Positions 16,562 to 42,793 of a DNA stretch of 64,000 nucleotides are shown in pieces (positions within the stretch are counted from its first letter, which is position 1; each line of letters opens with the position of its first letter). Under the pieces are notes generated by a model. The model ran no database searches, was not told where the DNA came from, and saw nothing but the letters and a program-made list of their open reading frames with translations. The translations under genes were made by a program, and so were the position numbers. The stretch is from a virus (taxonomy: Duplodnaviria; Caudoviricetes), in IMG/VR virus record IMGVR_UViG_3300035691_000004, positions 877 through 64,876 of that record, one strand, 5' to 3'.

Positions 16562-16818
16562 TGGCCCGAGCCACTGCTACGCCCAAGCTCCACGCGGCGA
16601 CGCTCCTGTGGGTGGCACGCGACCTGAGCAAGCGCGCTGAGGAGTTGCGCCTCGTTGCCGCCTCGCCTGGGCAGGACTTCGAATATGCAAGGACGCTCTT
16701 CGCTAGAGCGCTCGAGCTATCCATCGCTGCTCGGCGGATGCGGGCCAAGGCGGGCGCGCGCGGCGCTGCCAAGAGGCGGTCAGCCCCCTCCACAGCTCAA
16801 TTAGGAGAGGGCCGGTGA
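16561..16818 (+). CDS. Hypothetical protein
   Basis: 85 aa, coupled to neighbours. Confidence 0.5.
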   Translation: MARATATPKLHAATLLWVARDLSKRAEELRLVAASPGQDFEYARTLFARALELSIAARRMRAKAGARGAAKRRSAPSTAQLGEGR

Positions 16819-17309
16819 GCGGGCTCAGGACGGTGGCGGACCGATTTTGGGCGAAGGTCGACCGGGAAGGTCCTTTGCTGCGCCCCGAGCTTGGCAAGTG
16901 CTGGGTGTGGACCGCGTCAACAAATCAATGGGGCTACGGGCAGTTCAATGCACGCGAACATCAGTGCACGCTGGCACATCGGTTCGCCTGGCGGTTGTCG
17001 TTCGGCGATGCCAAGGAAATGTGCGTTCTGCATAAGTGCGACAATCCGCGCTGCGTAAATCCGGATCATCTATTCCTCGGAACGCGAACAGAGAACGCGG
17101 CTGACAAGGTGCGCAAGCATCGCCAGAGCCGCATTAGCTTGCCAGGCTCGCGCAATCCGATTGCGAAGCTCTCAGAGGAACAGGTGACACAGATGCGGGC
17201 GCTGGCACGCTCTGGTGTGTCCGGCGCAGAGCTTGGCCGCCGTTTTTCGGTCAGCAAATCAACGGCATGTCGCGCAATCCGCGGAGCCCTCTGGAGGCAC
17301 GTCGCATGA
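16815..17309 (+). CDS. HNH homing endonuclease 1 (HNH_3 type with C-terminal HTH)
   Basis: RFWAKVD, CWVW, AHR, VLHKCDNPRCVNPDHL..GT..EN. Confidence 0.92.
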   Translation: MSGLRTVADRFWAKVDREGPLLRPELGKCWVWTASTNQWGYGQFNAREHQCTLAHRFAWRLSFGDAKEMCVLHKCDNPRCVNPDHLFLGTRTENAADKVRKHRQSRISLPGSRNPIAKLSEEQVTQMRALARSGVSGAELGRRFSVSKSTACRAIRGALWRHVA

Positions 17310-19552: not shown

Positions 19553-19749
19553 GCAAAGTCCTCCACCCGCCCTTCCCGTCGCGACCCAAGTCCGGAGACC
19601 CCAGTGCCGCCAGTGCCCGCGATGGGCGCGTTCGCTTCGAGTGGCCCGAGCCGATCACGGAGTGGAACCTGTCACCCGAAGACGCTCGAAAGTGGGGCGA
19701 CCGGCTACTCACGTTTGCGGAGACGGCGGAGGAGCAGGCGGATGGCTAG
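19549..19749 (+). CDS. Small hypothetical protein
   Basis: ATGA overlap. Confidence 0.5.
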   Translation: MSKVLHPPFPSRPKSGDPSAASARDGRVRFEWPEPITEWNLSPEDARKWGDRLLTFAETAEEQADG

Positions 19750-20371
19750 CGTGATCTACCGCGACGAGATCTCCGAAGTCGTCCACGGCAATTGCCTGGT
19801 GGCGCCTCGCATCTCGCTGCAACGAGTGAGCGCCTGCGATCTTCCGCTGCCGACTACCGACAGTGAATGGTTGGAGCGGGCGCGCATGCAGTCGGCGCGC
19901 TTTTGGTCGAAGATGGATCGCTCGGACAACGGCGCATGTTGGGCGTGGCTTGCTGGCAAGGATTCGGGCGGCTATGGGAAGTTTCAGATCACTGGACGAG
20001 GCCCGCGTTTCCTGGGTGATCACCCGATACAGAAGCACGTCCGCGCGCACCGGCTCGCCTATGAATTGACTCACGGCCTAGTCAACCAAGAGCTTGTCAT
20101 GCGTCACAGGTGCGACAATCCGCCCTGCTGCAACCCTGCTCATCTGGAGCCCGGAACCCAGAAACAGAATCGACAGGATGCCGTGCAGCGCGGCCGCGAG
20201 CCGCGTGGTGTTCAGAAAACGATCGCCAAGATCGATGAGTCCACGGTCGCGGAGATAAGACGTTTGCGCGAATCTGGCCTGGGCCCGATCAAGATCGCTC
20301 AAGAGCTTGGCCTAACATCAGGCATCGTGTGCGGAGTCTACTACGGTCGCACATGGAGGCACGTGTCGTGA
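19742..20371 (+). CDS. HNH homing endonuclease 2, fused to a methylase N-terminal stub
   Basis: RFWSKMD, CWAW, AHRLAY, MRHRCDNPPCCNPAHLEPGT..N. Confidence 0.92.
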   Translation: MASVIYRDEISEVVHGNCLVAPRISLQRVSACDLPLPTTDSEWLERARMQSARFWSKMDRSDNGACWAWLAGKDSGGYGKFQITGRGPRFLGDHPIQKHVRAHRLAYELTHGLVNQELVMRHRCDNPPCCNPAHLEPGTQKQNRQDAVQRGREPRGVQKTIAKIDESTVAEIRRLRESGLGPIKIAQELGLTSGIVCGVYYGRTWRHVS

Positions 20372-21228
20372 GGCCGTCAGTAATATATTCTGACGAGTCG
20401 TCAGAAGTGTGGCACGCGGACAGCCTAGACCCGCAAACGCCCGAGCTGGTTCTCAAGGGGCGTCCGGCGGATGCACTGATCTTCGACGCGCCTTTTTCGG
20501 CCAAGACGCACGACGGCCACAAGAACGGGAAGCTGACGGCGGACAGGGCGGCGGCGTTTGCTGCCGACCCTGAAAATGACGCGCAGGGTGGCGCGCTCAA
20601 GCGGTACGCCGCGCGCAAGTCCGAAGCCGGCGAGAGCGGACGCCGCGACATCAACTACGACGCGTTCGACGCCGAACAAATCTCCGCATTCTGCGATATC
20701 TGGCTGCCCAACACACGCGGCTGGGTCGTGAGCATCACCGATGATCAGCTCGCCCCGCTCTGGGGCGCCGCATTCGAGGCTGCAGAGCTATACGTGTTCG
20801 CCCCGCTCCCTCTCGTCGAGACCGGCTCGCGTGTCCGGATGACCGGTGATGGGCCGAGCAACTGGACGTGCTGGATCGTGGTTGCTCGCCCGAAGACTCG
20901 CGAGTTTGCGTCTTGGGGAACGCTCCCTGGCGCCTACGTGCAGGCTGCCGAGCGCGACATCAACAGTCACGGCGGGAGCGATCGGATCGTGGGCGGGAAG
21001 CCCGAGCGGGCAATGTGTGGAATCGTCCGCGACTACTCGCGGCGCGGCGATCTCGTTGTCGATCCGTGCGCTGGCGGTGGCACTACCTTGATCGCGGCGA
21101 AGCAGCTCGGCCGGCGATCGCTCGGCATGGAGCTGGACGCGGAACGGGCGAAGCTCTGCGCGAAGCGGCTCGGGATTCGGCGCGAGCAGTTCGACTTGTT
21201 CCAAAGCGAGGCCGCCAATGGGTGGTAG
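20368..21228 (+). CDS. DNA N4/N6 methyltransferase (beta class)
   Basis: DAPF motif IV, GGKP, VVDPCAGGGT. Confidence 0.85.
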   Translation: MRPSVIYSDESSEVWHADSLDPQTPELVLKGRPADALIFDAPFSAKTHDGHKNGKLTADRAAAFAADPENDAQGGALKRYAARKSEAGESGRRDINYDAFDAEQISAFCDIWLPNTRGWVVSITDDQLAPLWGAAFEAAELYVFAPLPLVETGSRVRMTGDGPSNWTCWIVVARPKTREFASWGTLPGAYVQAAERDINSHGGSDRIVGGKPERAMCGIVRDYSRRGDLVVDPCAGGGTTLIAAKQLGRRSLGMELDAERAKLCAKRLGIRREQFDLFQSEAANGW

Positions 21229-21703: not shown

Positions 21704-22353
21704 AAGACCGCGGCGTACGAGGTGACTATGTGGATCGCGCATTCAAGGTTCCGCTGGCGGAGGTCGACACGCGGCCCAGCGTCGGCGCGCTGGTCGATCA
21801 GAAGCGCGCGGTCGCGGACCTGAAGCGGCTCCACGCGCAAAGGCCCATGAAGCCGCCGGTGCGCCACGGAATCCCGACGCTATACCGCGGAACGCTTTTC
21901 CGCAGCCGGCTCGAGGCGACGTGGGCCGCCATGTTCACGGAGCTGAAGATCCCATGGGAGTACGAGCCGCTCGACCTTGCTGGCTACATCCCGGATTTCC
22001 TGCTGAAGTACGAAAAGCACCCGCTGCTGATCGAGATCAAGCCCGCGTGCGAGGACGTCGAGGCGGCGAAGCTCAAGATCGAGTGCTCGGGTTGGGAGCA
22101 TGACGTCGCGATCCTGATCGACGGCGGCTCGAACATCGTCGGGCACATGCGGGACGACGACGTGTGGGATCGGTGCGTCCTTGCCGGCTGCTCGTGCGGC
22201 ATGGCGCAGTTCCTGAGTGAGAGCGGGCGCCATGAGTGTCGTAACTGCGGCGGCGATCGGCGCGAGCTCTGGTTCGCGTTCAACCCCGCGGCAGCGTGGG
22301 CGGACGCCAAGAACAAGACGCAGTGGAACCCGGTGGAGGCGACGATCGAATGA
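21700..22353 (+). CDS. PD-(D/E)XK nuclease-like protein
   Basis: FRSRLEA.WA, WEYEP, YIPDF, IEIKP. Confidence 0.8.
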   Translation: MKDRGVRGDYVDRAFKVPLAEVDTRPSVGALVDQKRAVADLKRLHAQRPMKPPVRHGIPTLYRGTLFRSRLEATWAAMFTELKIPWEYEPLDLAGYIPDFLLKYEKHPLLIEIKPACEDVEAAKLKIECSGWEHDVAILIDGGSNIVGHMRDDDVWDRCVLAGCSCGMAQFLSESGRHECRNCGGDRRELWFAFNPAAAWADAKNKTQWNPVEATIE

Positions 22354-23534
22354 GCGGACGGACTCCCGACGAAGGACGCTACTCGAAGGTCTCCCGCCGC
22401 ATGTGGGACGATCAGAGGTTCCGCGCGCTTTCAAAGCCGCCCCCGAACGCTCAGACGCTGTGGCAGCGATTGCTGACGGGGCCTGAGCTGGGATGCATTC
22501 CAGGCCTGTTCTCGGCCCGCGAGGGTGGCTTGGCCGATGCCCTTGGCTGGCCGGTAGAAGCGTTCCGCGAGTGCTGGAAAGAGATCGCTGGTCAGGACAT
22601 GGCGGAAGCAGACTGGAGAGTCGGGATCGTGTGGCTCCCGAATGCCCTTCAGCACAACGGCCCCACGAGCCCAAACCAAGTGGCGGCATGGCGCAAGGCA
22701 GCAAACGAGCTGCCCGAGTGCCCGCTGCGGCGCAAGGCGATGGCGCACATCGCGCGCATGCTTACCGACAAAGGGCCGGCGTGGATCGCTCCTTGGCGAC
22801 TCGCTGCTGACGCAGATTGGGCCCCAGAAAAGATCCGGAAAGGCACCAGAGACATGGTGCGCGAGCGAGACGGATCGTTCTGCCGCTACTGTGCGCTTCC
22901 GGTGAACTGGAGCGATCGCAAAGGTCCATCCGGGGCTACCTACGATCACGTGGACCCGACTAAGAGTGCGACACCAGACAACATTGTTGTGTCGTGCCGT
23001 GCCTGCAATTCCCAGAAGGGATTCAGGACACCTGCAGAAGCTGGGATGGTTTTGATCCAGATCGGATCTAGATCAGAACTGCTTAATAATCTGGGCACGA
23101 GTCGCAATCAGACTCAGACTCATAAACAAGAATCAGGATCAAGATCGGATCCAGCGGCGGGTCCAACGCTCGCGGACCGTGCGCGCGGCGTGCTCGAGAA
23201 TCCGCACGACGGCCAGTGGCAGAACCCTTCGCGCTGGCCGGAGGTCGTCGCGATTGCCAAGGCTTGGAGCGAACCTTTCGGCATCAAAGACCCGAAGCTA
23301 AGGGATTTTCCCGATGGCGATCGCGACCTCAAGGCGATTTTGCTGGCGCTTGCCGACGGATACGCGGCCGAAGAATTGGTCTCACTCGGCGCAAAAGCTG
23401 CGGCGGATCCGTGGTTCAAAGGCCTGAACAAGCCCGGGCCGAGCACCTTCAGCGCGGTTGTGATCCGGCGACTTCTCGCCGATCGTCCACAGCCCGCGAA
23501 AGCAGAAGCCGACGACGCTTCGGGGTGGGCATGA
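22350..23534 (+). CDS. Replication initiator with internal HNH domain
   Basis: Initiator-like N-terminus (MWDDQRFRALS), RDGSFCRYC..DHV..NIVVSCRACN; upstream of primase/helicase. Confidence 0.7.
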   Translation: MSGRTPDEGRYSKVSRRMWDDQRFRALSKPPPNAQTLWQRLLTGPELGCIPGLFSAREGGLADALGWPVEAFRECWKEIAGQDMAEADWRVGIVWLPNALQHNGPTSPNQVAAWRKAANELPECPLRRKAMAHIARMLTDKGPAWIAPWRLAADADWAPEKIRKGTRDMVRERDGSFCRYCALPVNWSDRKGPSGATYDHVDPTKSATPDNIVVSCRACNSQKGFRTPAEAGMVLIQIGSRSELLNNLGTSRNQTQTHKQESGSRSDPAAGPTLADRARGVLENPHDGQWQNPSRWPEVVAIAKAWSEPFGIKDPKLRDFPDGDRDLKAILLALADGYAAEELVSLGAKAAADPWFKGLNKPGPSTFSAVVIRRLLADRPQPAKAEADDASGWA

Positions 23535-34641: not shown

Positions 34642-35745
34642 ATGACTCAAGTACAGCGCGCGACGCTCCCTCAGGAGTTTTTCGACATCACTTCTGCGGC
34701 TCTGCTCGTGCAGCCCGAGCCGATGTATCTGCACTCTCGGCTGATCAAGATGGCGCTTTCCGCGTCGTTCGACGTCGGCAACATGCTCGGACTGCCCATG
34801 CCGGAGCGCCAGTTTGGTGGGCTCGGCGCGAACTACCAGACGAACCCGGAAGATGGCCGCCTGATGCTGAGTGATGGGCTCTACGACCAATCCGTGGTGG
34901 TGGTACCTGAGCTCGGCAAGAGCCCCGGCCACACGGTGCGAATCAACCGCCCGAGCTTCGCGAATACCACCTACACGCAGGCCTCACGCGAAGTGCCGAG
35001 CGGCACCACGATTTCGACGGTGCCGATCGCGGTCGGAAGCGAGCAGACCTCATGCACGCTCCGCCGCTTCGCTGGTCCGTACGACCAGACCAACTCGCGC
35101 GTTGCGCCGTTTGGCATTGATCGCTTCGACGGCAGCGTCATGCTGCACCGCCCCGCTCAGATCACTGGCCTGAACCTCAAGCGCGATTTCGATCGCACGC
35201 TCGACACGTTCGGCGTCAAGCTGTTCGACAACGCGAACTTGATCGTTCGCCCGAACGGCATGTCGAGCGACAATACGCCGGCAACCGCGGGGGACTATCC
35301 GTTCTCGTGGAGCTTGATGCAGAGCGCGGAGCGACAGCTCGACGACGCCAGCATTCCGTATTTCCCGAACGGGAAGCGCTTGATGGTGCTGCATCCAACA
35401 CAGGCCGAGCAGCTGTCAAACGACCCGGTGTTCCAGCGCATGGCTCGCTACGACAACAGCATGAACCCGCTGTTTCGCGGCACGTACTACAACAGCATCG
35501 GCACCTGGGACATCTTCAAGAGTTCGACGCTCACCACGACCACGTCGTCCAGCGGGTCTCAGCCCACCGTGTACTACGGCCAGGCATTCGGCCCGGGCGC
35601 GGTCGGCGCCGGCGCCGGCGACATGCCGCGCACGGCCTACAACACGCAGGACAACTACGGCGAAACCGCTCTCGTGATCTGGCTCTGGTACGCGGGTTTC
35701 GAGGTCCTCGACAACCGCTTCATTGCCCGTCTCACCACGTCCTGA
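34642..35745 (+). CDS. Major capsid protein
   Basis: 367 aa after scaffold; VLHPTQ and DNYG...W...GF C-terminus. Confidence 0.8.
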   Translation: MTQVQRATLPQEFFDITSAALLVQPEPMYLHSRLIKMALSASFDVGNMLGLPMPERQFGGLGANYQTNPEDGRLMLSDGLYDQSVVVVPELGKSPGHTVRINRPSFANTTYTQASREVPSGTTISTVPIAVGSEQTSCTLRRFAGPYDQTNSRVAPFGIDRFDGSVMLHRPAQITGLNLKRDFDRTLDTFGVKLFDNANLIVRPNGMSSDNTPATAGDYPFSWSLMQSAERQLDDASIPYFPNGKRLMVLHPTQAEQLSNDPVFQRMARYDNSMNPLFRGTYYNSIGTWDIFKSSTLTTTTSSSGSQPTVYYGQAFGPGAVGAGAGDMPRTAYNTQDNYGETALVIWLWYAGFEVLDNRFIARLTTS

Positions 35746-35754
35746 GGAGGACCC

Positions 35755-36177
35755 ATGGCCAGCAACGCCAGACTCAGAAACGCACAGCAGGCGACCGACC
35801 TGACGCTGAACGGCGTAACCGCCACCAGCGTCGCAGCGGGACCCACCCTGCTGATGTCGAACGTCGAAAAGGGCACACTCAGCGCCAAGACGGTTACTAC
35901 CGCCGAGACCAATACGATCACGCTCACCGTGATCTGGGAGGTTTCGGACGACGCCACGACCTGGGTGCGTGTGAAGAACTTCACCAACACCGCGCCGACC
36001 GTGGTCGGTACCGGCACCGCAGGTGCCGACTCTGCGGTCACCCAACAGAACGACGCGCCCTCGGCCGTATACGGCAAGCGCTATGCACGGTGCTCGATCC
36101 TCGTCGGTGTTACCACCGGCGCATCGAGCGATCTCGCAAACGTCTCATACGACTACGTGCAAGATCAGGGCTTCTAA
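35755..36177 (+). CDS. Probable head decoration protein
   Basis: GAGGAGG SD, Thr-rich. Confidence 0.6.
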   Translation: MASNARLRNAQQATDLTLNGVTATSVAAGPTLLMSNVEKGTLSAKTVTTAETNTITLTVIWEVSDDATTWVRVKNFTNTAPTVVGTGTAGADSAVTQQNDAPSAVYGKRYARCSILVGVTTGASSDLANVSYDYVQDQGF

Positions 36178-36183
36178 ACGCGC

Positions 36184-36789
36184 ATGGCGCTTCTCGATTC
36201 GGAGCTCCAGCGGATCCGCTTCGAGACCGGCTACAATGTTCTGAGCGCTGGCGCTGAGCCGTACGTAAGCTACGTCGCGATCTTCGACGTAGTTGTGCGC
36301 ACGTATCTCAACGCTGGCGCAAAGACTACGAGCTCGACCGCCATCTCAGCGTCGACAACGCCAGCGCTGGTATCTCTAACTCTGGCTAGCGCGGCGGGCT
36401 TCTCGGCTGGTGATCGTGTCTACCTCGATGTCGACGCTCGCCAGGAGTCAGCCATCGTAGAGACGGTTTCGGGCTCCGCGATCACACTGGCGCTCTCGCT
36501 TGCCCACTCCGGGACATATCCGGTTACCGTCGAGGGCGGTGAGGCAATCGTGCGCGAGTGCCTCCGAGACATCCTCGACGCCAAGCAGCGGGCGCGATCC
36601 TGGGGCGGAACAGGCGCGCTCAAGAAGGTAGACGAGGTCGAATTTTATCCTGGCACCGACGGGAAAACCGCCTTTGCCATGGCCGAGTCTGACCTGATGC
36701 TATTGCGCGACCGACTCTGTAGCGCGCTCGGGGTCACAAATCTGTGGCGTGTCCGGGCTGGCGCGGGGCTGTCCATTTCCTCTTACTAG
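36184..36789 (+). CDS. Head-tail adaptor
   Basis: Synteny; KKVDEVEFY. Confidence 0.6.
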   Translation: MALLDSELQRIRFETGYNVLSAGAEPYVSYVAIFDVVVRTYLNAGAKTTSSTAISASTTPALVSLTLASAAGFSAGDRVYLDVDARQESAIVETVSGSAITLALSLAHSGTYPVTVEGGEAIVRECLRDILDAKQRARSWGGTGALKKVDEVEFYPGTDGKTAFAMAESDLMLLRDRLCSALGVTNLWRVRAGAGLSISSY

Positions 36790-36791
36790 CC

Positions 36792-36869
36792 ATGCCCACC
36801 CTAGCCGAATCCCTCCGCCCGCTCGTCTCGAGCATCAGGGCGATCCCGGGGCAGATGGGGACTAGTTGA
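36792..36869 (+). pseudogene. Orphaned 5' stub of the 37609 gene (MPTLAESLRPLVSSIRAIPGQMGTS*)
   Basis: 14 of 23 aa identical to the N-terminus of 37609..38046. Confidence 0.8.
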
Positions 36870-36887
36870 AGGTATGCTTATCGCGTT

Positions 36888-37682
36888 ATGGCGATAGCAA
36901 AGGACAGAGATAGACCGTGCACTAGCTGCGGCATGAGCAGCCCGGACGCCTCTTTCTCCAGCAAGCCGGACGGGCATAGGTGCTCGAGATGCAGGGCGTG
37001 CAAAGCCAGAGACGCGAGCGCTAGGCGCGCTGCAAATCCGGAGAAATCCCGAGCAGCTAAGAAGCGCTGGCGAGAACGCCACCCGGATCGGGTACGCGCG
37101 GAGGAACGGAATCGCAAGAGGCGCACTCGACAAGTTTTACCAGGATTTCGAAGGGGCTCATCAGTCGATACCCCAGGAATTCTGCTTTGCGCCGGATGCA
37201 AGCGAGCCCTCCAGAGCAACGACTTTGCGCGCAACTCGAAGAAGAAGAGGGGGCGGCAAAGTCGTTGCAGATCCTGCCAAGCGGCAGACCGCGCACTACG
37301 ATTGGACCGCGAGCGAGAGACCAAAAGGGCTTGGCGCGCCAAGAATAAAGCGCTCACCAACGCGGCTGCTGCACGTAGGCGTGCAGCCTTGCGCGTTGGG
37401 CCCTGCGTGGCGATTGACGCAAAAGCCATAAGAGAGCGCTTCTTAGTTTTTGGCAATCTCTGCGCATATTGCGGTTCCGCAGAGAAGCTCAGCATCGATC
37501 ATGTAAAGCCGCTCGCGCGTGGCGGACTCCATATCCTCGCAAACATTCGACCAGCGTGTCGCTCCTGCAACTGCAGGAAGCGCGACATGGCACCAAAGGA
37601 ATGGTTAGATGCCATCGTTCGCGGAAAGCCTGCGGCCAATGATCAGCTCCGTGAGGTCATTGCCGGGAATTCTCGGACTTAG
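36888..37682 (+). CDS. HNH endonuclease 3 (Zn-ribbon repeats plus McrA-like HNH)
   Basis: CAYCG..SIDHVKPLARGG..NIRPACRSCN. Confidence 0.92.
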   Translation: MAIAKDRDRPCTSCGMSSPDASFSSKPDGHRCSRCRACKARDASARRAANPEKSRAAKKRWRERHPDRVRAEERNRKRRTRQVLPGFRRGSSVDTPGILLCAGCKRALQSNDFARNSKKKRGRQSRCRSCQAADRALRLDRERETKRAWRAKNKALTNAAAARRRAALRVGPCVAIDAKAIRERFLVFGNLCAYCGSAEKLSIDHVKPLARGGLHILANIRPACRSCNCRKRDMAPKEWLDAIVRGKPAANDQLREVIAGNSRT

Positions 37683-38046
37683 GCCTTACAGCGCCTCGAT
37701 CATCACCGGTGCATGGTCGGGCTCAGCCACCGGCAGCGGCGCCGAGACCACGACGACGATCGCGCTCACCGAAGGCAACGGCCAGCCCTGCAAGGTTCGC
37801 TGGCTCAACTCCGAAGAGCTGGCGGTCGGAGACCTCCAGAAGGGCACGATCGAGATCGGCCCCATCACGCCAGGCCCAGGCGGCAACAACCTGCTCTCGC
37901 AGATTCACCCGGCGCTCAGCGCTGGCCAGACGATTCACGTGCTCGTGAACGGTCCCGACCTCGGGACCGCGAAGTTCGAGATCACTTCGTTCAACGCGGA
38001 CCACGCGCTGCACTACACGATTCAGGCGAAGCCAGTAGGAACGTGA
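37609..38046 (+). CDS. Head-closure/neck protein
   Basis: Synteny; AAGGA SD lies inside the HNH3 gene. Confidence 0.65.
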   Translation: MPSFAESLRPMISSVRSLPGILGLRPYSASIITGAWSGSATGSGAETTTTIALTEGNGQPCKVRWLNSEELAVGDLQKGTIEIGPITPGPGGNNLLSQIHPALSAGQTIHVLVNGPDLGTAKFEITSFNADHALHYTIQAKPVGT

Positions 38047-38840
38047 CCGACTCCGCTAACACGATCAACCAGCGCGTTGGCGTGTTCGAGTTCCCGTACT
38101 CAGATACGGACGTCGACAACACCGACAAGACCGTCACGGATCTTGCCCAGTCAACGCTACTCTCGCTGTTCCAGGCGGCCATCAACGACGAGCTGACCGG
38201 TGTTTTCGCGAAGGTGGCCGCCGGCACCGCACTCGATCACGATTCGCTCCCGCTGATTCCAGTGCGCGACGTCTGGCCCGGCCGCTGGTCGCCGCAAGTC
38301 GCCAAGCAGCGCAAAACAACTTTTCCCGTCCTCGCTCTCTATCGCACAGGCGCTCGCGAGTGGAACGAGCTGACGCTGGGCGTCGACCAGGCCACGCAAA
38401 AGTGGGGCATCGACCTCATTCTCGGCCCGGTAGACGTCGGGGACCAGCAGCGCATCGAGCGCATCCTTCCTCGCATCGGCGTGCTCGTTCAGCGCGTGCT
38501 CCGTAACCGCGGGCACAAGTCCTTTCAGTCTGGTGCCTGCCTATGGGGTGTCCAAGAGACCGGCTCGCTCTCCTCAGTCTGGATGGACAAGGACGAGTTT
38601 GGCCCTGCGCAGTTCGTCGGCGACGACGGTGGCGTGACATATCTCGGCTGGTCGGCGCAGCTCACTACTACCGAGGTGGATTCGAACGTCGGCGATGGTG
38701 ACGCTGTCGACCTGCTCGGAACGACTTTCACGTTCGGTGTTGGTGGCAGCGATGGCGTCATCCCAGGCGCAATCACCGCGATCAGCATCGGCGAATTCAG
38801 CTCTGAGTTCAGCAGCGAATTTCGGGTGTTAGGTACATGA
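38043..38840 (+). CDS. Tail terminator-like protein
   Basis: GTG 38043; FPVLALYR; synteny. Confidence 0.6.
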   Translation: MTDSANTINQRVGVFEFPYSDTDVDNTDKTVTDLAQSTLLSLFQAAINDELTGVFAKVAAGTALDHDSLPLIPVRDVWPGRWSPQVAKQRKTTFPVLALYRTGAREWNELTLGVDQATQKWGIDLILGPVDVGDQQRIERILPRIGVLVQRVLRNRGHKSFQSGACLWGVQETGSLSSVWMDKDEFGPAQFVGDDGGVTYLGWSAQLTTTEVDSNVGDGDAVDLLGTTFTFGVGGSDGVIPGAITAISIGEFSSEFSSEFRVLGT

Positions 38841-39830: not shown

Positions 39831-40184
39831 ATGATTTTGAAGTTCTACGCCAAGGCCGACGCCTTGCAGCGAGTGCCGAGCTTTCACCCGGCGGTCGGTC
39901 AGCACGATCGCTACGTCGGCCGCGAGCACGATCCGAAGCGCCCCGGCGCATTCCCGGCGACGCGCGAACCGTTCACCTGTGACTCGGAGTCCGAGGACGG
40001 GCGACGGCTGAAGCATCTGCTCTTCCGCGATCACGACCTCTGGGCCGCCGATCAAGCGACCGCCGATTATTGCCAGGTGCCGTTCGTACCCGTCGAGTTC
40101 GACGACGGCGAATGGGTGCCGTCCAAGCCCGCGGCGCGCGCTGAGCCCGCGGCCACCAAGCCCAACAAACCCAAGGACGACTGA
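39831..40184 (+). CDS. Hypothetical protein upstream of sheath
   Basis: SD, coupled to sheath gene. Confidence 0.6.
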   Translation: MILKFYAKADALQRVPSFHPAVGQHDRYVGREHDPKRPGAFPATREPFTCDSESEDGRRLKHLLFRDHDLWAADQATADYCQVPFVPVEFDDGEWVPSKPAARAEPAATKPNKPKDD

Positions 40185-41731
40185 TGAGTCTCATCCCCGT
40201 TACCGGCATTCCGAGCTCGTACCGCACACCTGGCGCCTATGCCGAGATCCTGTTCGCGCAGGGCCCGGGCACGAGCTCCGCGGGTGTCCGCAGCGTCATC
40301 CTCGTCATGCCGATGAGCTCGGCCGGCACCTGGACGGCGAACACCGTCTACGAGGTGAAGAACGAGGGCACGGCGAACGTGGGTGCCGGTGTCGGCTCGC
40401 CGCTTCATCGCGCGTGTCGCGCATTCCTGAAGCGGAACAAGCGCGCGAAGCTCTTTGCTCTGCCCTATTCCGCGAGCTCTGGCGGCTCGCCAGTGGCGGC
40501 CACGGGCACCATCACCTACGCGACGACTGCAACCGCAATCCTGACCACTGAGGTCGACATCTGCGGCGAGACCACGTCGACCAAGATCGCGAGCGGTGAC
40601 ACGGTCACTACGATCGCGACCAATATGGCCGCAGCCATCAATGCCAAGGATTGGTTGCCTGTCACGGCGGCTAACGTGGCCGGCGTGCTCACGCTAACTG
40701 CCAAGATTGCCGGAGCTTCGCAGGGAACCGCAACGATTGGCGTTATTCGCTACCGCGCACGCATCATCGGCTCGGGCGGCACGACCGTCACGACCTCCGG
40801 CGCATTCCTCGGCACTGGCGTGGCAGGCGCGGATGGCACGACCACCGAAGCCGCGAACCTAGCAACCGCGCTCGCTGTGATCGCTGGCGCTCGTTACTAC
40901 TACATCGGCACGTCGCTCTCGGACGCAACGTCGCTCGGCAACCTCAAGACGCACATCGCCGCCAAGTCGAACCCGAGCCCTGGGCTTCGTTCGGTGGGCT
41001 GCTCTGCCTGGACGGGCACGAGCGCGACCGGCATCACGATCGCGCAGGGGCTCAACTACGAGCGCCACCAGATCGTATGGCAGAAGAACAGCGAACATGA
41101 TTATGCCGAGCTCGTCGGCGCGATGCTGGCGACACGGCAGGCCAAAGAAGAGCTCGACGCGACCTTCAACTTCGACAATTACCGTGGCGTCGAGTGGCAG
41201 ATCCTGCCGGCCTATGCGCAGGCGGATTGGCCGACGGACGACGACGCGAACGACGCCATCAACGGTGGCCTGACGCCGATCCAATCGGATGCGGCGGGCT
41301 CGGCGATCACGATGACGATCACCACGCGTTCTAAGAACGCTGCGGGCACCGTCGCCGACTTCCGTGCGGCCGAGACGCATCGCATCTCTGGCGCTGACTT
41401 GTACGTGGACGACACGCTAACCAAGTACGCGCTGGACTATGGCGCCAAGAAGCTCGCGAGTGACCAATTGCTGGCAAACGGCAAGGTCAACACCAACCAA
41501 AAGCAGCGGCCAGGCGTCGTTACTCCGTTCAACTTCCGGCCCTTCATGGTGAAGCAGATTCACGATTTCGTCGAACGGGAGCAACTCCAGGACGAAGACG
41601 CGATGGTCGCTTCGCTACAGATCCAGCGCGACCCCAACAACACGGGGCGGCTCGAGGTCGGCCAAGAGATCCGCGTGATCGACCAGCTGCACCAGGCGAC
41701 GTTCCGATTCGCCGAGACCTCGCCCGGCTGA
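40184..41731 (+). CDS. Tail sheath protein (Mu gpL-like)
   Basis: IPSSYRTPGAYAEI, GVGS.LH, GGLTP, RDPNNTGRL. Confidence 0.9.
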   Translation: MSLIPVTGIPSSYRTPGAYAEILFAQGPGTSSAGVRSVILVMPMSSAGTWTANTVYEVKNEGTANVGAGVGSPLHRACRAFLKRNKRAKLFALPYSASSGGSPVAATGTITYATTATAILTTEVDICGETTSTKIASGDTVTTIATNMAAAINAKDWLPVTAANVAGVLTLTAKIAGASQGTATIGVIRYRARIIGSGGTTVTTSGAFLGTGVAGADGTTTEAANLATALAVIAGARYYYIGTSLSDATSLGNLKTHIAAKSNPSPGLRSVGCSAWTGTSATGITIAQGLNYERHQIVWQKNSEHDYAELVGAMLATRQAKEELDATFNFDNYRGVEWQILPAYAQADWPTDDDANDAINGGLTPIQSDAAGSAITMTITTRSKNAAGTVADFRAAETHRISGADLYVDDTLTKYALDYGAKKLASDQLLANGKVNTNQKQRPGVVTPFNFRPFMVKQIHDFVEREQLQDEDAMVASLQIQRDPNNTGRLEVGQEIRVIDQLHQATFRFAETSPG

Positions 41732-41734
41732 TCC

Positions 41735-42415
41735 GTGCAGGTCTGTACCAAGTGCCGCGAGAGCAAGGCGCTTGACGATTTCTACCTTCTGGCAACCGGT
41801 TGCAGGCGGCGCGAATGCAAGGCCTGTTGTTCCGCTTACGCCAAGGGTCGCCCGGCGTACCAGTACGAACCGAATGCGGACAAGCGGTGCTCGCGCTGCT
41901 TAGCAGTGAAGAAGAACACCGAGTTTGCGCGGAACAAGAACAGCAAACTCGGCACACGCTCTTGGTGCAAAGCCTGCTTCAGCGAGTACTCGAAGGCCGA
42001 CAACAAGGCTCGATATGCGGCGGACCCGGACGCAGCACTAAGGCGCTCAGGTGAATGGGCGGCGCGCAATGGAGCGCTCATCCTTGCAAATCACAGGGCC
42101 AATCGCGCGCGAGATCCGAAGCTATATAACTCGAGCCGCTCTGCTCGATACCAGCGCGAACGCTCAGCTGTCGGCCCCGGGATATCCGCCGAGCAATGGG
42201 CGGAGATACTCGAGATTCACGATCACCGCTGCGCGTACTGCCTGCGAAAGATCGCGCCGCTCCAACTCGACCACGTGATCGCGCTCGCCCGTGGCGGCGA
42301 GCATCACGCTGACAACGCAGTTCCAGCCTGTGTCTCCTGCAACAGCAGCAAGCGCGACAAGGCGATGTTCGAAATCCTAAACCCGCGGCTGCTTGTCGCA
42401 CAACGATCGGTTTAA
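41735..42415 (+). CDS. HNH endonuclease 4 (Zn-ribbon repeats plus McrA-like HNH)
   Basis: CAYC..LDHVIALARGG.H..N.VPACVSCN. Confidence 0.92.
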   Translation: MQVCTKCRESKALDDFYLLATGCRRRECKACCSAYAKGRPAYQYEPNADKRCSRCLAVKKNTEFARNKNSKLGTRSWCKACFSEYSKADNKARYAADPDAALRRSGEWAARNGALILANHRANRARDPKLYNSSRSARYQRERSAVGPGISAEQWAEILEIHDHRCAYCLRKIAPLQLDHVIALARGGEHHADNAVPACVSCNSSKRDKAMFEILNPRLLVAQRSV

Positions 42416-42418
42416 CCC

Positions 42419-42793
42419 ATTTCGGTCCAACAAGACTATGCGCGCCTCCCAGTTTTCTACAATGGGAGCTACCTCAACCAGCTGACCAGCGTCTCACACG
42501 AGACGGACCCCGGCCAGATGCCAGTCAACCTTCTAAACGAGGGGCTCGGTGGCTTCACACCCGGGACCGGCAGCTGCAAGATCACCCTCGGCTTCGCCAT
42601 TCCGATCGGCGGCACCGAGCAGCCATACCAGCAGGACGCGGCGAACGGCGCCTATATCAGGATGCAGCTTGGCGTCGGCGACGTCTCATATATCGGGACC
42701 GGCAAGATTCACAACGTGAAGATCAGCCAGTCCGTGAACGCCGCCGCCGAAGGCACCCTGGACTGGGAAGGCGAGCTCAAGCCGATGAGCTGA
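42419..42793 (+). CDS. Tail tube protein (5' part lacks a canonical start)
   Basis: Frame open from 42416 (PISVQQDYARLPVFYNG...), ATT at 42419, first ATG 42518; lies between sheath and chaperone. Confidence 0.7.
   Translation: MSVQQDYARLPVFYNGSYLNQLTSVSHETDPGQMPVNLLNEGLGGFTPGTGSCKITLGFAIPIGGTEQPYQQDAANGAYIRMQLGVGDVSYIGTGKIHNVKISQSVNAAAEGTLDWEGELKPMS

What the first reader, a model, noticed from the sequence alone, without database searches (positions are those of the whole stretch)
36792..37682. HNH3: orphan 25-codon start stub and a replacement N-terminus overprinted on the HNH C-terminus
The stub at 36792 sits 2 nt after the adaptor gene stop, in the natural operon position, and ends after QMG-TS. 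The replacement start at 37609 and its AAGGA SD lie inside the HNH ORF. The HNH stop (37680-37682) falls almost exactly where similarity to the stub ends. The two junctions resemble each other (GGACTAG at about 36859, GGACTTAG at about 37675). About 74 nt are dual-coded. This is the clearest instance, and it affects a probably essential neck gene.
Basis: seen in the sequence. Interest (0 to 1): 0.8.

Follow-up and report, generated by a model that had tools for sequence, protein, structure and literature searches.

The report
Endonuclease cassette that replaces a gene start
A selfish DNA-cutting-enzyme gene sits 24 codons inside a phage neck-protein gene and carries its own substitute beginning for that gene, so the original beginning survives only as a dead 25-codon stub; this lets such elements invade coding sequence without an intron.

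Summary
A 25-codon ORF (36792-36869) follows the upstream gene's stop by 2 nt. Its first 23 residues match the start of the 145-aa gene X (37609-38046) at 14 of 23 (tblastn E 6e-8; next best hit 0.07). A 264-aa HNH endonuclease ORF (36888-37682) lies between them and overlaps X by 74 nt.

Every X homolog carries this N-terminus. One close relative (P0003) has the stub-type N-terminus (20 of 23) joined to its body, while the working copy matches it at only 12 of 23 against 113 of 122 for the body. In 61 of 80 related phage loci the upstream gene abuts X. Homologous HNH genes occupy the same junction in three relatives, and one of these (L047) shows the mirror image, a duplicated upstream-gene C-terminus.

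No intron was detected. Independent contigs bridge both junctions.

Best reading: a homing-endonuclease cassette (HNH plus a foreign X 5' end with its own SD and ATG) was copied into X, and the stub is the resident relic. The HNH tail is overprinted on X, not the reverse.

This mirrors fungal mitochondrial mORFs and yeast WHO elements. My searches found no phage description. This scan has noted the same design in at least 17 other genomes.

The parts
36184..36789 (+). It is the conserved left neighbour of X.
   Evidence: ORF. 672 homologs at E<=1e-10. It directly precedes X in 61 of 80 IMG/VR loci and in L007, L008, L011 and L015. No Pfam family and only a weak PHROG hit, so its function is not established.
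36792..36869 (+). Stub: 25 codons plus TGA. It is the relic of the resident 5' end of X, codons 1-23 (to about 25).
   Evidence: 14 of 23 aa identical to the X N-terminus, E 6e-8. 20 of 23 identical to the N-terminus of relative P0003, where that segment is joined to the body. GC3 0.91, like the structural genes.
36866..37682 (+). Intercalated segment of 817 nt, in register. Removing it would join the stub in frame to the X body (..ACT AG|G CCT TAC..).
   Evidence: The distance between the two ATGs is 817 nt and the last in-register match is TAG. The boundary is uncertain by about 5 nt.
36888..37682 (+). HNH endonuclease ORF, 264 aa: zinc-ribbon and Arg-rich N-terminal part plus a C-terminal HNH domain.
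   Evidence: Pfam HNH and HNH_5 above cut-off at residues 192-238. PHROG 1035, E 8.7e-32. 31-44% identical to the HNH genes at the same junction in L005, L047 and L058. GC3 0.61.
37461..37583 (+). HNH catalytic core (PF01844 match).
   Evidence: G000 38337-38459, which is window 37461-37583; E 1.1e-11, 41.7 bits.
37596..37600 (+). Shine-Dalgarno-like AAGGA for X, lying inside the HNH codons P-K-E-W.
   Evidence: Sequence, 8 nt before ATG 37609. Function is inferred.
37609..38046 (+). Gene X, 145 aa: a probable head-closure or stopper-type neck protein. Codons 1 to about 24 are the replacement 5' end.
   Evidence: ORF. Six non-self homologs at 42-87% identity, all with the N-terminal segment. 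AF2 mean pLDDT 73. Fold matches: 2kz4 Z 8.2, SPP1 connector chain 7z4w_1 Z 7.2, and several phage neck chains at about Z 6.
37609..37682 (+). 74-nt overlap: X codons 1-25 in one frame and HNH residues 241-264 plus the stop in another.
   Evidence: HNH profile matches end at residues 238-245. The median tail after CxxCNxxK is 14 aa in the 29 of 30 homologs that carry the motif, against 33 aa here.

Best explanation
This is a splicing-free homing-endonuclease cassette that invaded the 5' coding region of gene X. The mobile unit is the HNH gene together with a foreign copy of X's first ~24 codons, which carries its own ribosome-binding site and ATG inside the HNH 3' tail.

The likely sequence of events is as follows. 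The HNH enzyme, or an ancestor at this locus, cut an HNH-less allele near the upstream-gene/X junction. Repair from an HNH-bearing relative copied the HNH gene and the donor's X 5' end into the break. The resident X 5' end, up to about codon 24, was left upstream as a stub.

X is now made from ATG 37609. The stub is a relic, still translated by coupling to the upstream gene. It ends 18 nt before the HNH ATG in the same frame, so it may hand ribosomes on to the HNH gene.

Shown: the anatomy, the homology, the HNH-less state in relatives, the site-specific HNH lineage, and the association of duplications with HNH.

Inferred: cleavage, direction of transfer, the start codon actually used, and reinitiation.
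For: 1. X's N-terminal segment is integral to the family. All 6 non-self homologs (7 proteins at E<=1e-3 among 43 candidates, one of them self) carry it, followed by G-[LI]-R-P.

2. P0003 (86% identical) has a stub-type N-terminus joined to its body. Stub against P0003 is 20 of 23, in line with the body at 113 of 122 (Fisher p 0.41). The working copy against P0003 is 12 of 23 (p 1e-5 against the body).

3. The two copies have saturated synonymous sites. Nucleotide identity is 37 of 69, and by codon position 11, 19 and 7 of 23. All 3 shared serines have switched between TCN and AGY. The longest identical runs are 5 nt. Yet the stub keeps its ATG and an open frame. That does not fit slow divergence of a dead copy in place.

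4. HNH-less state in relatives. The upstream gene abuts X in L007 (L009 is the same contig), L008, L011 and L015, and in 61 of 80 adaptor-anchored IMG/VR loci.

5. Homologous HNH genes lie at the same junction in L005, L047 and L058 (E 1e-20 to 1e-27 to this HNH). These score better than the paralog at 41735 (5e-15) and better than the best of 30 database hits (1.5e-17).

6. Duplications track the HNH. 2 of 4 HNH-bearing loci have one: the window, and L047 with a 31-aa upstream-gene C-terminus at 27 of 31 aa and third positions 7 of 32. Of the 79 loci that have both the adaptor and the X N-terminus, none has a second copy scoring above the null maximum of 38-39; 78 of these are HNH-less and one is L005, which is HNH-bearing.

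7. The HNH tail is extended: 24 residues after EW, against 5, 8 and 12 in the locus-mates.

8. GC3 is 0.61 for the HNH and 0.70 for the working copy, against 0.91 for the stub, 0.83 for the X body and 0.71-0.84 for the structural genes. This is weak, with n=23 for the short pieces.

9. A second case occurs in this genome, at the HNH_3-type gene at 19742 (score 49 against a background of <=36).
Against: The direction of transfer rests on one close relative. P0002 (87% identical) is about equally near the working copy (17 of 23) and the stub (16 of 23), and N-termini are generally more variable than bodies (P0002 against P0003: 15 of 23 against 105 of 122).

So no close HNH-less allele was examined at nucleotide level.

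Same-codon use between the two copies (3 of 13, expected 4.9, p 0.21) is no lower than chance, so deliberate recoding is not shown here.

Working-copy-like residues (VRS.PG) occur naturally in L075.

No HNH-less joint was seen in the four runs laid.

Cleavage activity, the cut site, the start codon used and expression are all untested.

The coincidence of the HNH stop with the end of the duplicated segment is only partly explained. The TAG arises from the conserved L-R codons and is also present in register in the stub.
Confidence: 0.75

Rival explanations
1. Reverse direction. The working copy plus the body is the native X, and the stub arrived with the HNH: a cassette of stub plus HNH inserted between the upstream gene and X.
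For: P0002's N-terminus is slightly nearer the working copy (17 of 23) than the stub (16 of 23). The stub and the HNH share a reading frame. In the HNH_3-type case at 19742 the old N-terminus is fused to the HNH.
Against: Stub plus body is the coherent pair against P0003 (20 of 23 and 113 of 122), while the working copy is the outlier (12 of 23, p 1e-5). P0003 carries the stub-type N-terminus on an uninterrupted gene. The working copy is physically fused with the HNH tail and SD. Stub GC3 of 0.91 is like the resident genes.
Confidence: 0.1
2. A purely local event. A tandem duplication of X's 5' end arose around an intergenic HNH in this lineage and the two copies then diverged in place, with no imported 5' end.
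For: L005 and L058 show the HNH as a clean intergenic insert, a possible precursor.
Against: Third codon positions are saturated (7 of 23 identical), yet the unselected stub keeps its ATG, an open frame and 20 of 23 identity to P0003. The time needed to saturate the working copy should have degraded the stub.
Confidence: 0.08
3. The stub is exon 1 or a take-off site. X is made from ATG 36792 by RNA splicing (group I or II intron carrying the HNH ORF) or by ribosomal bypass of 817 nt.
For: Removing 817 nt in register restores an in-frame X. HNH ORFs are common in phage group I introns, and a GGA-stop motif recalls T4 gene 60 (both from established knowledge, recalled).
Against: Rfam gave 0 matches at gathering score over the window. 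At E<=10 over 36600-37900 there were only three chance-level hits, none an intron. The ORF fills all but 22 nt of the insert, leaving no room for a ribozyme core. A complete second start with SD would be superfluous. Known bypasses skip about 50 nt (abstract of bioRxiv 2022.08.31.505936).
Confidence: 0.02
4. Assembly chimera of two strains.
For: The record is a metagenome-derived virus genome.
Against: Contigs with 0 differences bridge both junctions in three further runs.
Confidence: 0.01

Closest known systems
Mobile endonuclease ORFs (mORFs) of fungal mitochondria: Allomyces macrogynus atp6, and Glomus sp. atp6, atp9, cox2 and nad3. Source: Beaudet et al. 2013, PMC3630166, passages read. 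It cites Paquin et al. 1994, which I did not read.
   Same: An endonuclease gene travels with a foreign copy of one end of its target gene. The target stays whole as a hybrid, and the native end remains as a duplicated relic beyond the endonuclease gene. The imported end is much more diverged at nucleotide level than at protein level. No intron or intein is needed.
   Different: In fungi the 3' end (C-terminus) is replaced and the endonucleases are LAGLIDADG or GIY-YIG types. Here the 5' end is replaced, so the cassette must also supply an SD and ATG, and the enzyme is an HNH in a phage. The true mirror of the fungal form occurs in relative L047, where the upstream-gene C-terminus is duplicated.
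WHO elements of Torulaspora and Lachancea yeasts homing into FBA1 (Coughlan et al. 2020, PMC7282813, passages read).
   Same: The unit is an endonuclease gene plus the resistance-conferring end of the target gene. The old end is pushed aside as a fragment whose boundary marks the cleavage site. The replaced end evolves discordantly with the rest of the gene.
   Different: WHO elements are eukaryotic, act in meiosis, use an intein-derived endonuclease, replace the 3' end and form tandem clusters of relics. Cleavage and allele resistance were shown experimentally there and not here.
T4-type MobA element with the gene 60 bypass cassette (Manning and Atkins, bioRxiv 2022.08.31.505936, abstract and outline only; Bonocora et al. 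2011 recalled, not read), and mobE splitting nrdA in phage Aeh1 (Friedrich et al. 2007, recalled, not read).
   Same: A free-standing phage HNH-type homing endonuclease gene lies inside a coding sequence, and the downstream part of the gene gets a new start.
   Different: Those insertions split the gene into two polypeptides, with or without a 50-nt bypass. They do not duplicate a gene end. Here the whole protein is re-made from a duplicated start.
Classical free-standing homing endonucleases and intronless homing in T4-like phages (review PMC2988022, seen in the search listing only).
   Same: An intergenic HEG next to a conserved gene, presence/absence polymorphism among relatives, and spread by break repair with co-conversion of flanks. 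L005 and L058 look like this form.
   Different: The classical form leaves no duplicated gene end and does not sit within the reading frame of its target.

Membership tests
HNH endonuclease (Pfam PF01844 / PF14279) | A beta-beta-alpha-metal core with the D-H, N and CxxC...CxxC-N motifs, scoring above the curated cut-off. | tested here: met
   PF01844 scores 37.1 bits against 21.4, and PF14279 scores 37.9 against 27.5, at residues 192-238. The CAYC..DH..N..CRSCN motifs are visible in the translation.
Free-standing homing endonuclease gene | Presence/absence polymorphism at one fixed locus among related genomes. | tested here: met
   tblastn with five HNH queries found an HNH of this lineage at the upstream-gene/X junction in 3 of 85 related loci (L005, L047, L058), and the window has one too. 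The two genes are adjacent in 61 of 80 loci.
Free-standing homing endonuclease gene | The enzyme cleaves the HEG-less allele near the insertion site, and the HEG-bearing allele is resistant. | not testable with these tools
   This needs a cleavage assay.
End-replacement homing element (mORF / WHO type) | [quoted passage not shown] | tested here: met
   The order is stub, then HNH, then full-length X.
End-replacement homing element (mORF / WHO type) | The relic matches close relatives as well as the rest of the gene does, and the working end is the outlier (imported). | tested here: inconclusive
   Met against P0003 (20 of 23 and 113 of 122, against 12 of 23). Not discriminated by P0002 (16 against 17 of 23). 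The comparison is at protein level only, and only two close relatives exist.
Group I or group II intron with an HNH ORF | A ribozyme core flanking or enclosing the ORF. | tested here: not met
   Rfam gave 0 hits at gathering score and no intron family at E<=10 over 36600-37900. Only 22 nt of the insert lie outside the ORF.
Programmed translational bypass (T4 gene 60 type) | A short coding gap of about 50 nt between matched take-off and landing codons. | tested here: not met
   The gap would be 817 nt. The 50-nt figure comes from the abstract read.
Phage head-closure / stopper neck protein (SPP1 gp16-like) for gene X | A small beta-barrel fold matching solved neck or stopper chains, and a position between the head and tail genes. 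| tested here: inconclusive
   2kz4 gives Z 8.2 (rmsd 3.3, 101 aligned) and 7z4w_1 gives Z 7.2. Several neck chains give about Z 6, but flavin reductases reach about Z 5.5 as well. Foldseek E-values are all above 1e-3. The gene order is MCP ... X ... sheath.

The most novel reading that the evidence does not exclude
The stub is not dead DNA but a working part of the element. The HNH gene has taken over X's original, translationally coupled initiation site. The stub ORF ends 18 nt before the HNH ATG, in the same frame, and the HNH has no SD of its own. In exchange the HNH donates a new SD and ATG to X.

This would be a reciprocal swap of translation signals. It would tie endonuclease expression to late virion-gene translation and let HEGs colonise coding sequence without introns.

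The same logic recurs in this genome. At 19742 the old N-terminus is fused in frame to an HNH_3-type enzyme. At 41735 the HNH is in frame with a start-less tail-tube gene. With the same HNH lineage in mirrored form in L047, this would be a general phage strategy.
Probability: 0.25. Interest if true: 0.7.

Novelty: new variant of a known kind. Interest (0 to 1): 0.55.

Why it matters
It shows how a homing endonuclease can enter the reading frame of a probably essential virion gene without an intron, an intein or gene splitting. It does so by carrying a spare gene start.

- **Annotation:** orphan mini-ORFs and odd gene starts next to HNH genes are scars of this process and should not be read as new genes.
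- **Phylogeny:** the first ~24 codons of X have a different history from the rest of the gene.
- **Mechanism:** the end of the stub is a candidate marker of the enzyme's cleavage site, which makes specificity testable for an uncultured phage.
- **Evolution:** one HNH lineage at one junction produces clean intergenic, 5'-duplicated and 3'-duplicated forms. This links classical intronless homing in phages with the mORF and WHO mode described in fungi.

Tried and rejected
**Intron.** Rfam at gathering score over the window gave 0 hits. The permissive search of 36600-37900 gave only two miRNA hits and one sRNA hit at chance level.

**tRNA or tmRNA.** None in the window.

**Promoter or terminator for the HNH.** No sigma-70-like site and no plus-strand terminator in 36000-38200. 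The host's promoter type is unknown.

**Close relatives with DNA.** I could not examine any close relative at nucleotide level.
- The search for related loci with X alone in viral contigs found none.
- The phage collection gave one 37% hit.
- Alignment-based scans gave only relatives of <=49% identity.
- The contexts of P0002 and P0003 could not be fetched.
- The adaptor search returned no protein from contigs of their sizes, so it says nothing about them.

**HNH-less variant in reads.** No joint was seen in four runs. Contigs drop rare variants, so this is not evidence of absence.

**Deliberate synonymous recoding in the window.** Not supported: 3 of 13 same codons against 4.9 expected, p 0.21. 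It is significant only in L047 (3 of 25 against 8.7, p 0.008). The codon-usage set for L047 came from raw ORFs and may include spurious ones.

**GC3 as a boundary marker.** The pieces are too short (n=23) to be decisive.

The RTVA repeat at 16827 and 17309 was judged by eye only, as a four-residue match too short to assess; the six-frame scan of the 17297 query gave a best non-self score of 38, with no tile near 16827 among the top hits. The SVQ repeat for the tube was not tested as such; the scan of the tube N-terminus gave best non-self scores of 34-39. Only 36792/37609 and 19748/20377 score above that background.

**Literature.** Searches found no phage paper describing a duplicated N-terminus around a homing endonuclease. 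Passages of PMC10055350 and PMC12724721 did not describe one either. Two searches are not an exhaustive check. Supplements were not consulted.
Full report
**Setting.** The window is bases 877-64876 of a 64,876-bp IMG/VR virus record with direct terminal repeats. The finding lies in the late virion module. The gene order is:
- major head protein (34642-35745, PHROG 1357);
- a 140-aa gene;
- the finding;
- a 264-aa gene and a 168-aa gene;
- a Neck1/tail-completion-like gene;
- the tail sheath (40184-41731, PHROG 165, E 3.9e-64).

**The observation.**
- The stub runs from ATG 36792, 2 nt after the upstream TAG, to TGA 36867-36869, 25 codons.
- An HNH ORF spans 36888-37682 (264 aa). Pfam HNH and HNH_5 score above cut-off at residues 192-238.
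- Gene X runs from ATG 37609 to 38046 (145 aa). AAGGA lies 8 nt upstream, and a TAG in the X frame lies directly before the ATG.
- The overlap is 74 nt.

The stub matches X residues 1-23 at 14 of 23. tblastn E is 6e-8 within the window, with the next hit at 0.07. The Smith-Waterman score is 84, against a six-frame background maximum of 38-40.

The two ATGs are 817 nt apart. In that register the last shared bases are TAG (36863-36865 and 37680-37682), which in the second copy is the HNH stop codon. Stub and HNH share a frame, separated by TGA and six codons.

Contigs identical to the window bridge the left junction in two further runs and the right junction in a third. The arrangement is therefore real DNA, although the runs may belong to one sampling campaign.

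**X and its N-terminus.** X has six non-self homologs in the 5.8-billion-protein set, at 42-87% identity. All begin with the same ~23-residue segment followed by G-[LI]-R-P.

An AlphaFold model built on a 7-sequence alignment (mean pLDDT 73) gives a beta-barrel core at residues 23-145 and a poorly defined N-terminal helix. The second-look alignment puts a prophage protein (2kz4, Z 8.2), an SPP1 connector-complex chain (Z 7.2) and several phage neck chains (about Z 6) on top. Unrelated flavin reductases lie not far below, and Foldseek E-values are all weak. 'Neck/stopper protein' is therefore a reasonable but unproven label.

**Which copy is native.** Relative P0003 (86% identical overall) carries an N-terminus that matches the stub at 20 of 23, joined to a body that matches X's body at 113 of 122. 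The working copy matches P0003 at only 12 of 23 (Fisher p 1e-5 against the body). P0002 (87%) does not discriminate: 17 of 23 to the working copy and 16 of 23 to the stub.

At nucleotide level the two copies share 37 of 69 bases. Third positions are at chance (7 of 23), and all three shared serines have switched codon family. Same-codon use (3 of 13, expected 4.9) is compatible with simple saturation.

A dead stub that still has its ATG, an open frame and 87% identity to a relative cannot have sat there for the time needed to saturate the other copy. So the working copy most likely came from a diverged lineage together with the HNH.

Composition points the same way but weakly. GC3 is 0.61 for the HNH and 0.70 for the working copy, against 0.91 for the stub and 0.83 for the body.

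**Relatives without and with the HNH.** In X-anchored loci the 201-aa gene abuts X in L007 (L009 is the same contig), L008, L011 and L015. L005 has an HNH between them.

I then anchored on the much larger 201-aa family and took the best 80 of 123 IMG/VR relatives. The results were:
- X starts within about 80 nt of the upstream gene's end in 61 loci.
- Another 16 loci have 160-1270 nt inserted: small ORFs, a kinase-like ORF, a methyltransferase-like ORF, larger unknown ORFs, or no ORF.
- Three loci gave no X hit. Two are truncated. The third is L058, whose X is visible by eye.

tblastn with five HNH queries found this HNH lineage in 3 of 85 loci: L005, L047 and L058. These three HNH genes match the window's at E 1e-20 to 1e-27 (31-44% identity). 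That is better than the window's own paralog at 41735 (5e-15) and better than any of the 30 database hits (best 1.5e-17). The host genes in these loci are only about 40-55% identical to the window's. This is the signature of a site-specific homing lineage.

**Three architectures of one lineage.** L005 and L058 are clean intergenic inserts. In L005 the HNH stop overlaps X's ATG (TGATG), and its N-terminus overlaps the upstream gene's end.

L047 is the mirror of the window. The HNH is flanked by two copies of the upstream gene's last 31 codons, with 27 of 31 aa identical, 61 of 96 nt identical and third positions at 7 of 32. Same-codon use is 3 of 25 against 8.7 expected (p 0.008). The upstream copy is contiguous with the gene body, and the downstream copy is a relic next to X.

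None of the 79 loci with both the adaptor and the X N-terminus has a second copy of either gene end above the null maximum of 38-39; 78 of them lack the HNH and one is L005. So the duplications go with the HNH: 2 of 4 HNH-bearing loci against 0 of 78 HNH-less ones.

**Direction of overprinting.** Homology among the four HNH proteins ends at the E-W(-L) motif, residue 240 here, and X's ATG is codon 241. After E-W the locus-mates run on for 5, 8 and 12 residues, and this one for 24. Of 30 database homologs, 29 carry the CxxCNxxK motif, and their median tail after it is 14 aa against 33 here. The X frame is the conserved one. So the HNH ORF has simply lost an earlier stop and reads through X's 5' end to the first stop. 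That stop is the TAG formed by the conserved Leu-Arg codons. The '74 nt dual coding' is thus an incidental HNH tail laid over X.

**Mechanism.** The enzyme, or an ancestor at this junction, cuts HNH-less genomes near the junction. Repair from an HNH-bearing co-infecting relative copies the HNH with the adjoining donor sequence. Depending on where the break and the joints fall, the result is a clean insert (L005, L058), a replaced 3' end of the upstream gene with the old end as a relic (L047), or a replaced 5' end of X with the old start as a stub (the window).

The lack of any identical run longer than 5 nt between the two copies would also protect the cassette from deletion by recombination.

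Expression is inferred. The stub is translated by coupling to the upstream gene, as X is in HNH-less relatives (TGATG overlaps). The HNH, which has no well-placed SD, may reinitiate 18 nt after the stub's stop. X uses AAGGA and ATG 37609.

No sigma-70-like promoter or plus-strand terminator lies in the region.

**Alternatives.** An intron or an 817-nt bypass is very unlikely. Rfam found nothing, the ORF fills all but 22 nt of the insert, and a full second start would be redundant. An in-place duplication and the reverse direction of transfer are each possible but less parsimonious, for the reasons given above.

**Comparison with what is known.** The design matches fungal mitochondrial mORFs and yeast WHO elements.
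- mORFs consist of an endonuclease plus a foreign C-terminus, with the native C-terminus left as a relic. The imported end shows 64-81% nucleotide identity against 94-100% protein identity (PMC3630166, passages).
- In WHO elements the unit is the endonuclease plus the resistance-conferring gene end, and the relic's boundary marks the cleavage site (PMC7282813, passages).

The differences here are replacement of the 5' end, which requires a portable SD and ATG, an HNH enzyme, and a phage host.

The T4 MobA/gene 60 and Aeh1 mobE cases put an HEG inside a gene but split it rather than duplicating an end (abstract; the rest recalled).

My two targeted searches and the passages of two phage HEG papers gave no phage description of this form. 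That check is limited.

This scan has already recorded the same design in at least 17 other genomes. Its notes supplied the WHO and MobA leads, which I checked in the papers.

**Verdict.** It is a new variant (5'-end replacement in a phage) of a known kind of homing element. The finding of all three architectures of one HNH lineage at one junction adds to its value. Interest is moderate at 0.55.

Noticed in passing
window 19742-20427: A second case in the same genome, with an unrelated enzyme (HNH_3 / I-HmuI-like, Pfam E 7.6e-9). The old N-terminus of the downstream DNA methylase (17 aa at 19748-19798) is fused in frame to the HNH's own N-terminus. A second copy (11 of 17 identical) starts the methylase at 20377. 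Score 49, against a six-frame background of <=36.
   Followed up: partly
window 41735-42793: A third HNH (PF01844 type, 226 aa) sits between the sheath and the tail tube. The tube's first ~33 codons align with a relative's tube N-terminus (L004). They have no ATG, GTG or TTG start and follow the HNH in the same frame across a single TAA. Only ATT at 42419 or ATG at 42518 (a 91-aa truncated product) is available.
   Followed up: partly
L047 3541-4348 (IMGVR_UViG_3300020577_005463): Mirror-image case with a homologous HNH. The last 31 codons of the upstream 201-aa gene are duplicated on both sides of the HNH, with 27 of 31 aa identical. Only 3 of 25 synonymous codons are shared, against 8.7 expected (p 0.008). 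This suggests selection for nucleotide dissimilarity, or a donor with a different codon usage.
   Followed up: yes
L017-L096, junction after the 201-aa gene: The junction between the 201-aa gene and X is an insertion hot spot. 16 of 80 loci carry 160-1270 nt of unrelated cargo there: a recurrent ~55-aa lysine-rich ORF in L020, L021, L042, L045 and L046; a P-loop kinase-like ORF in L022; a methyltransferase-like ORF in L068 and L069; larger unknown ORFs in L019 and L025; and ORF-less gaps in L056, L074 and L075.
   Followed up: partly
window 16815-17309 and 22296-23534: Two more HNH genes bring the total to five in a 65-kb phage: an HNH_3 type with a C-terminal HTH (164 aa), and a PF01844 domain inside a 412-aa ORF. 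All five have lower GC3 (0.61-0.70) than the structural genes (0.71-0.84).
   Followed up: no
L014 910-1953: In this metagenome locus only residues 67-143 of X are matched. They lie at the end of a 347-codon open frame, which could be a fusion or another insertion in X.
   Followed up: no
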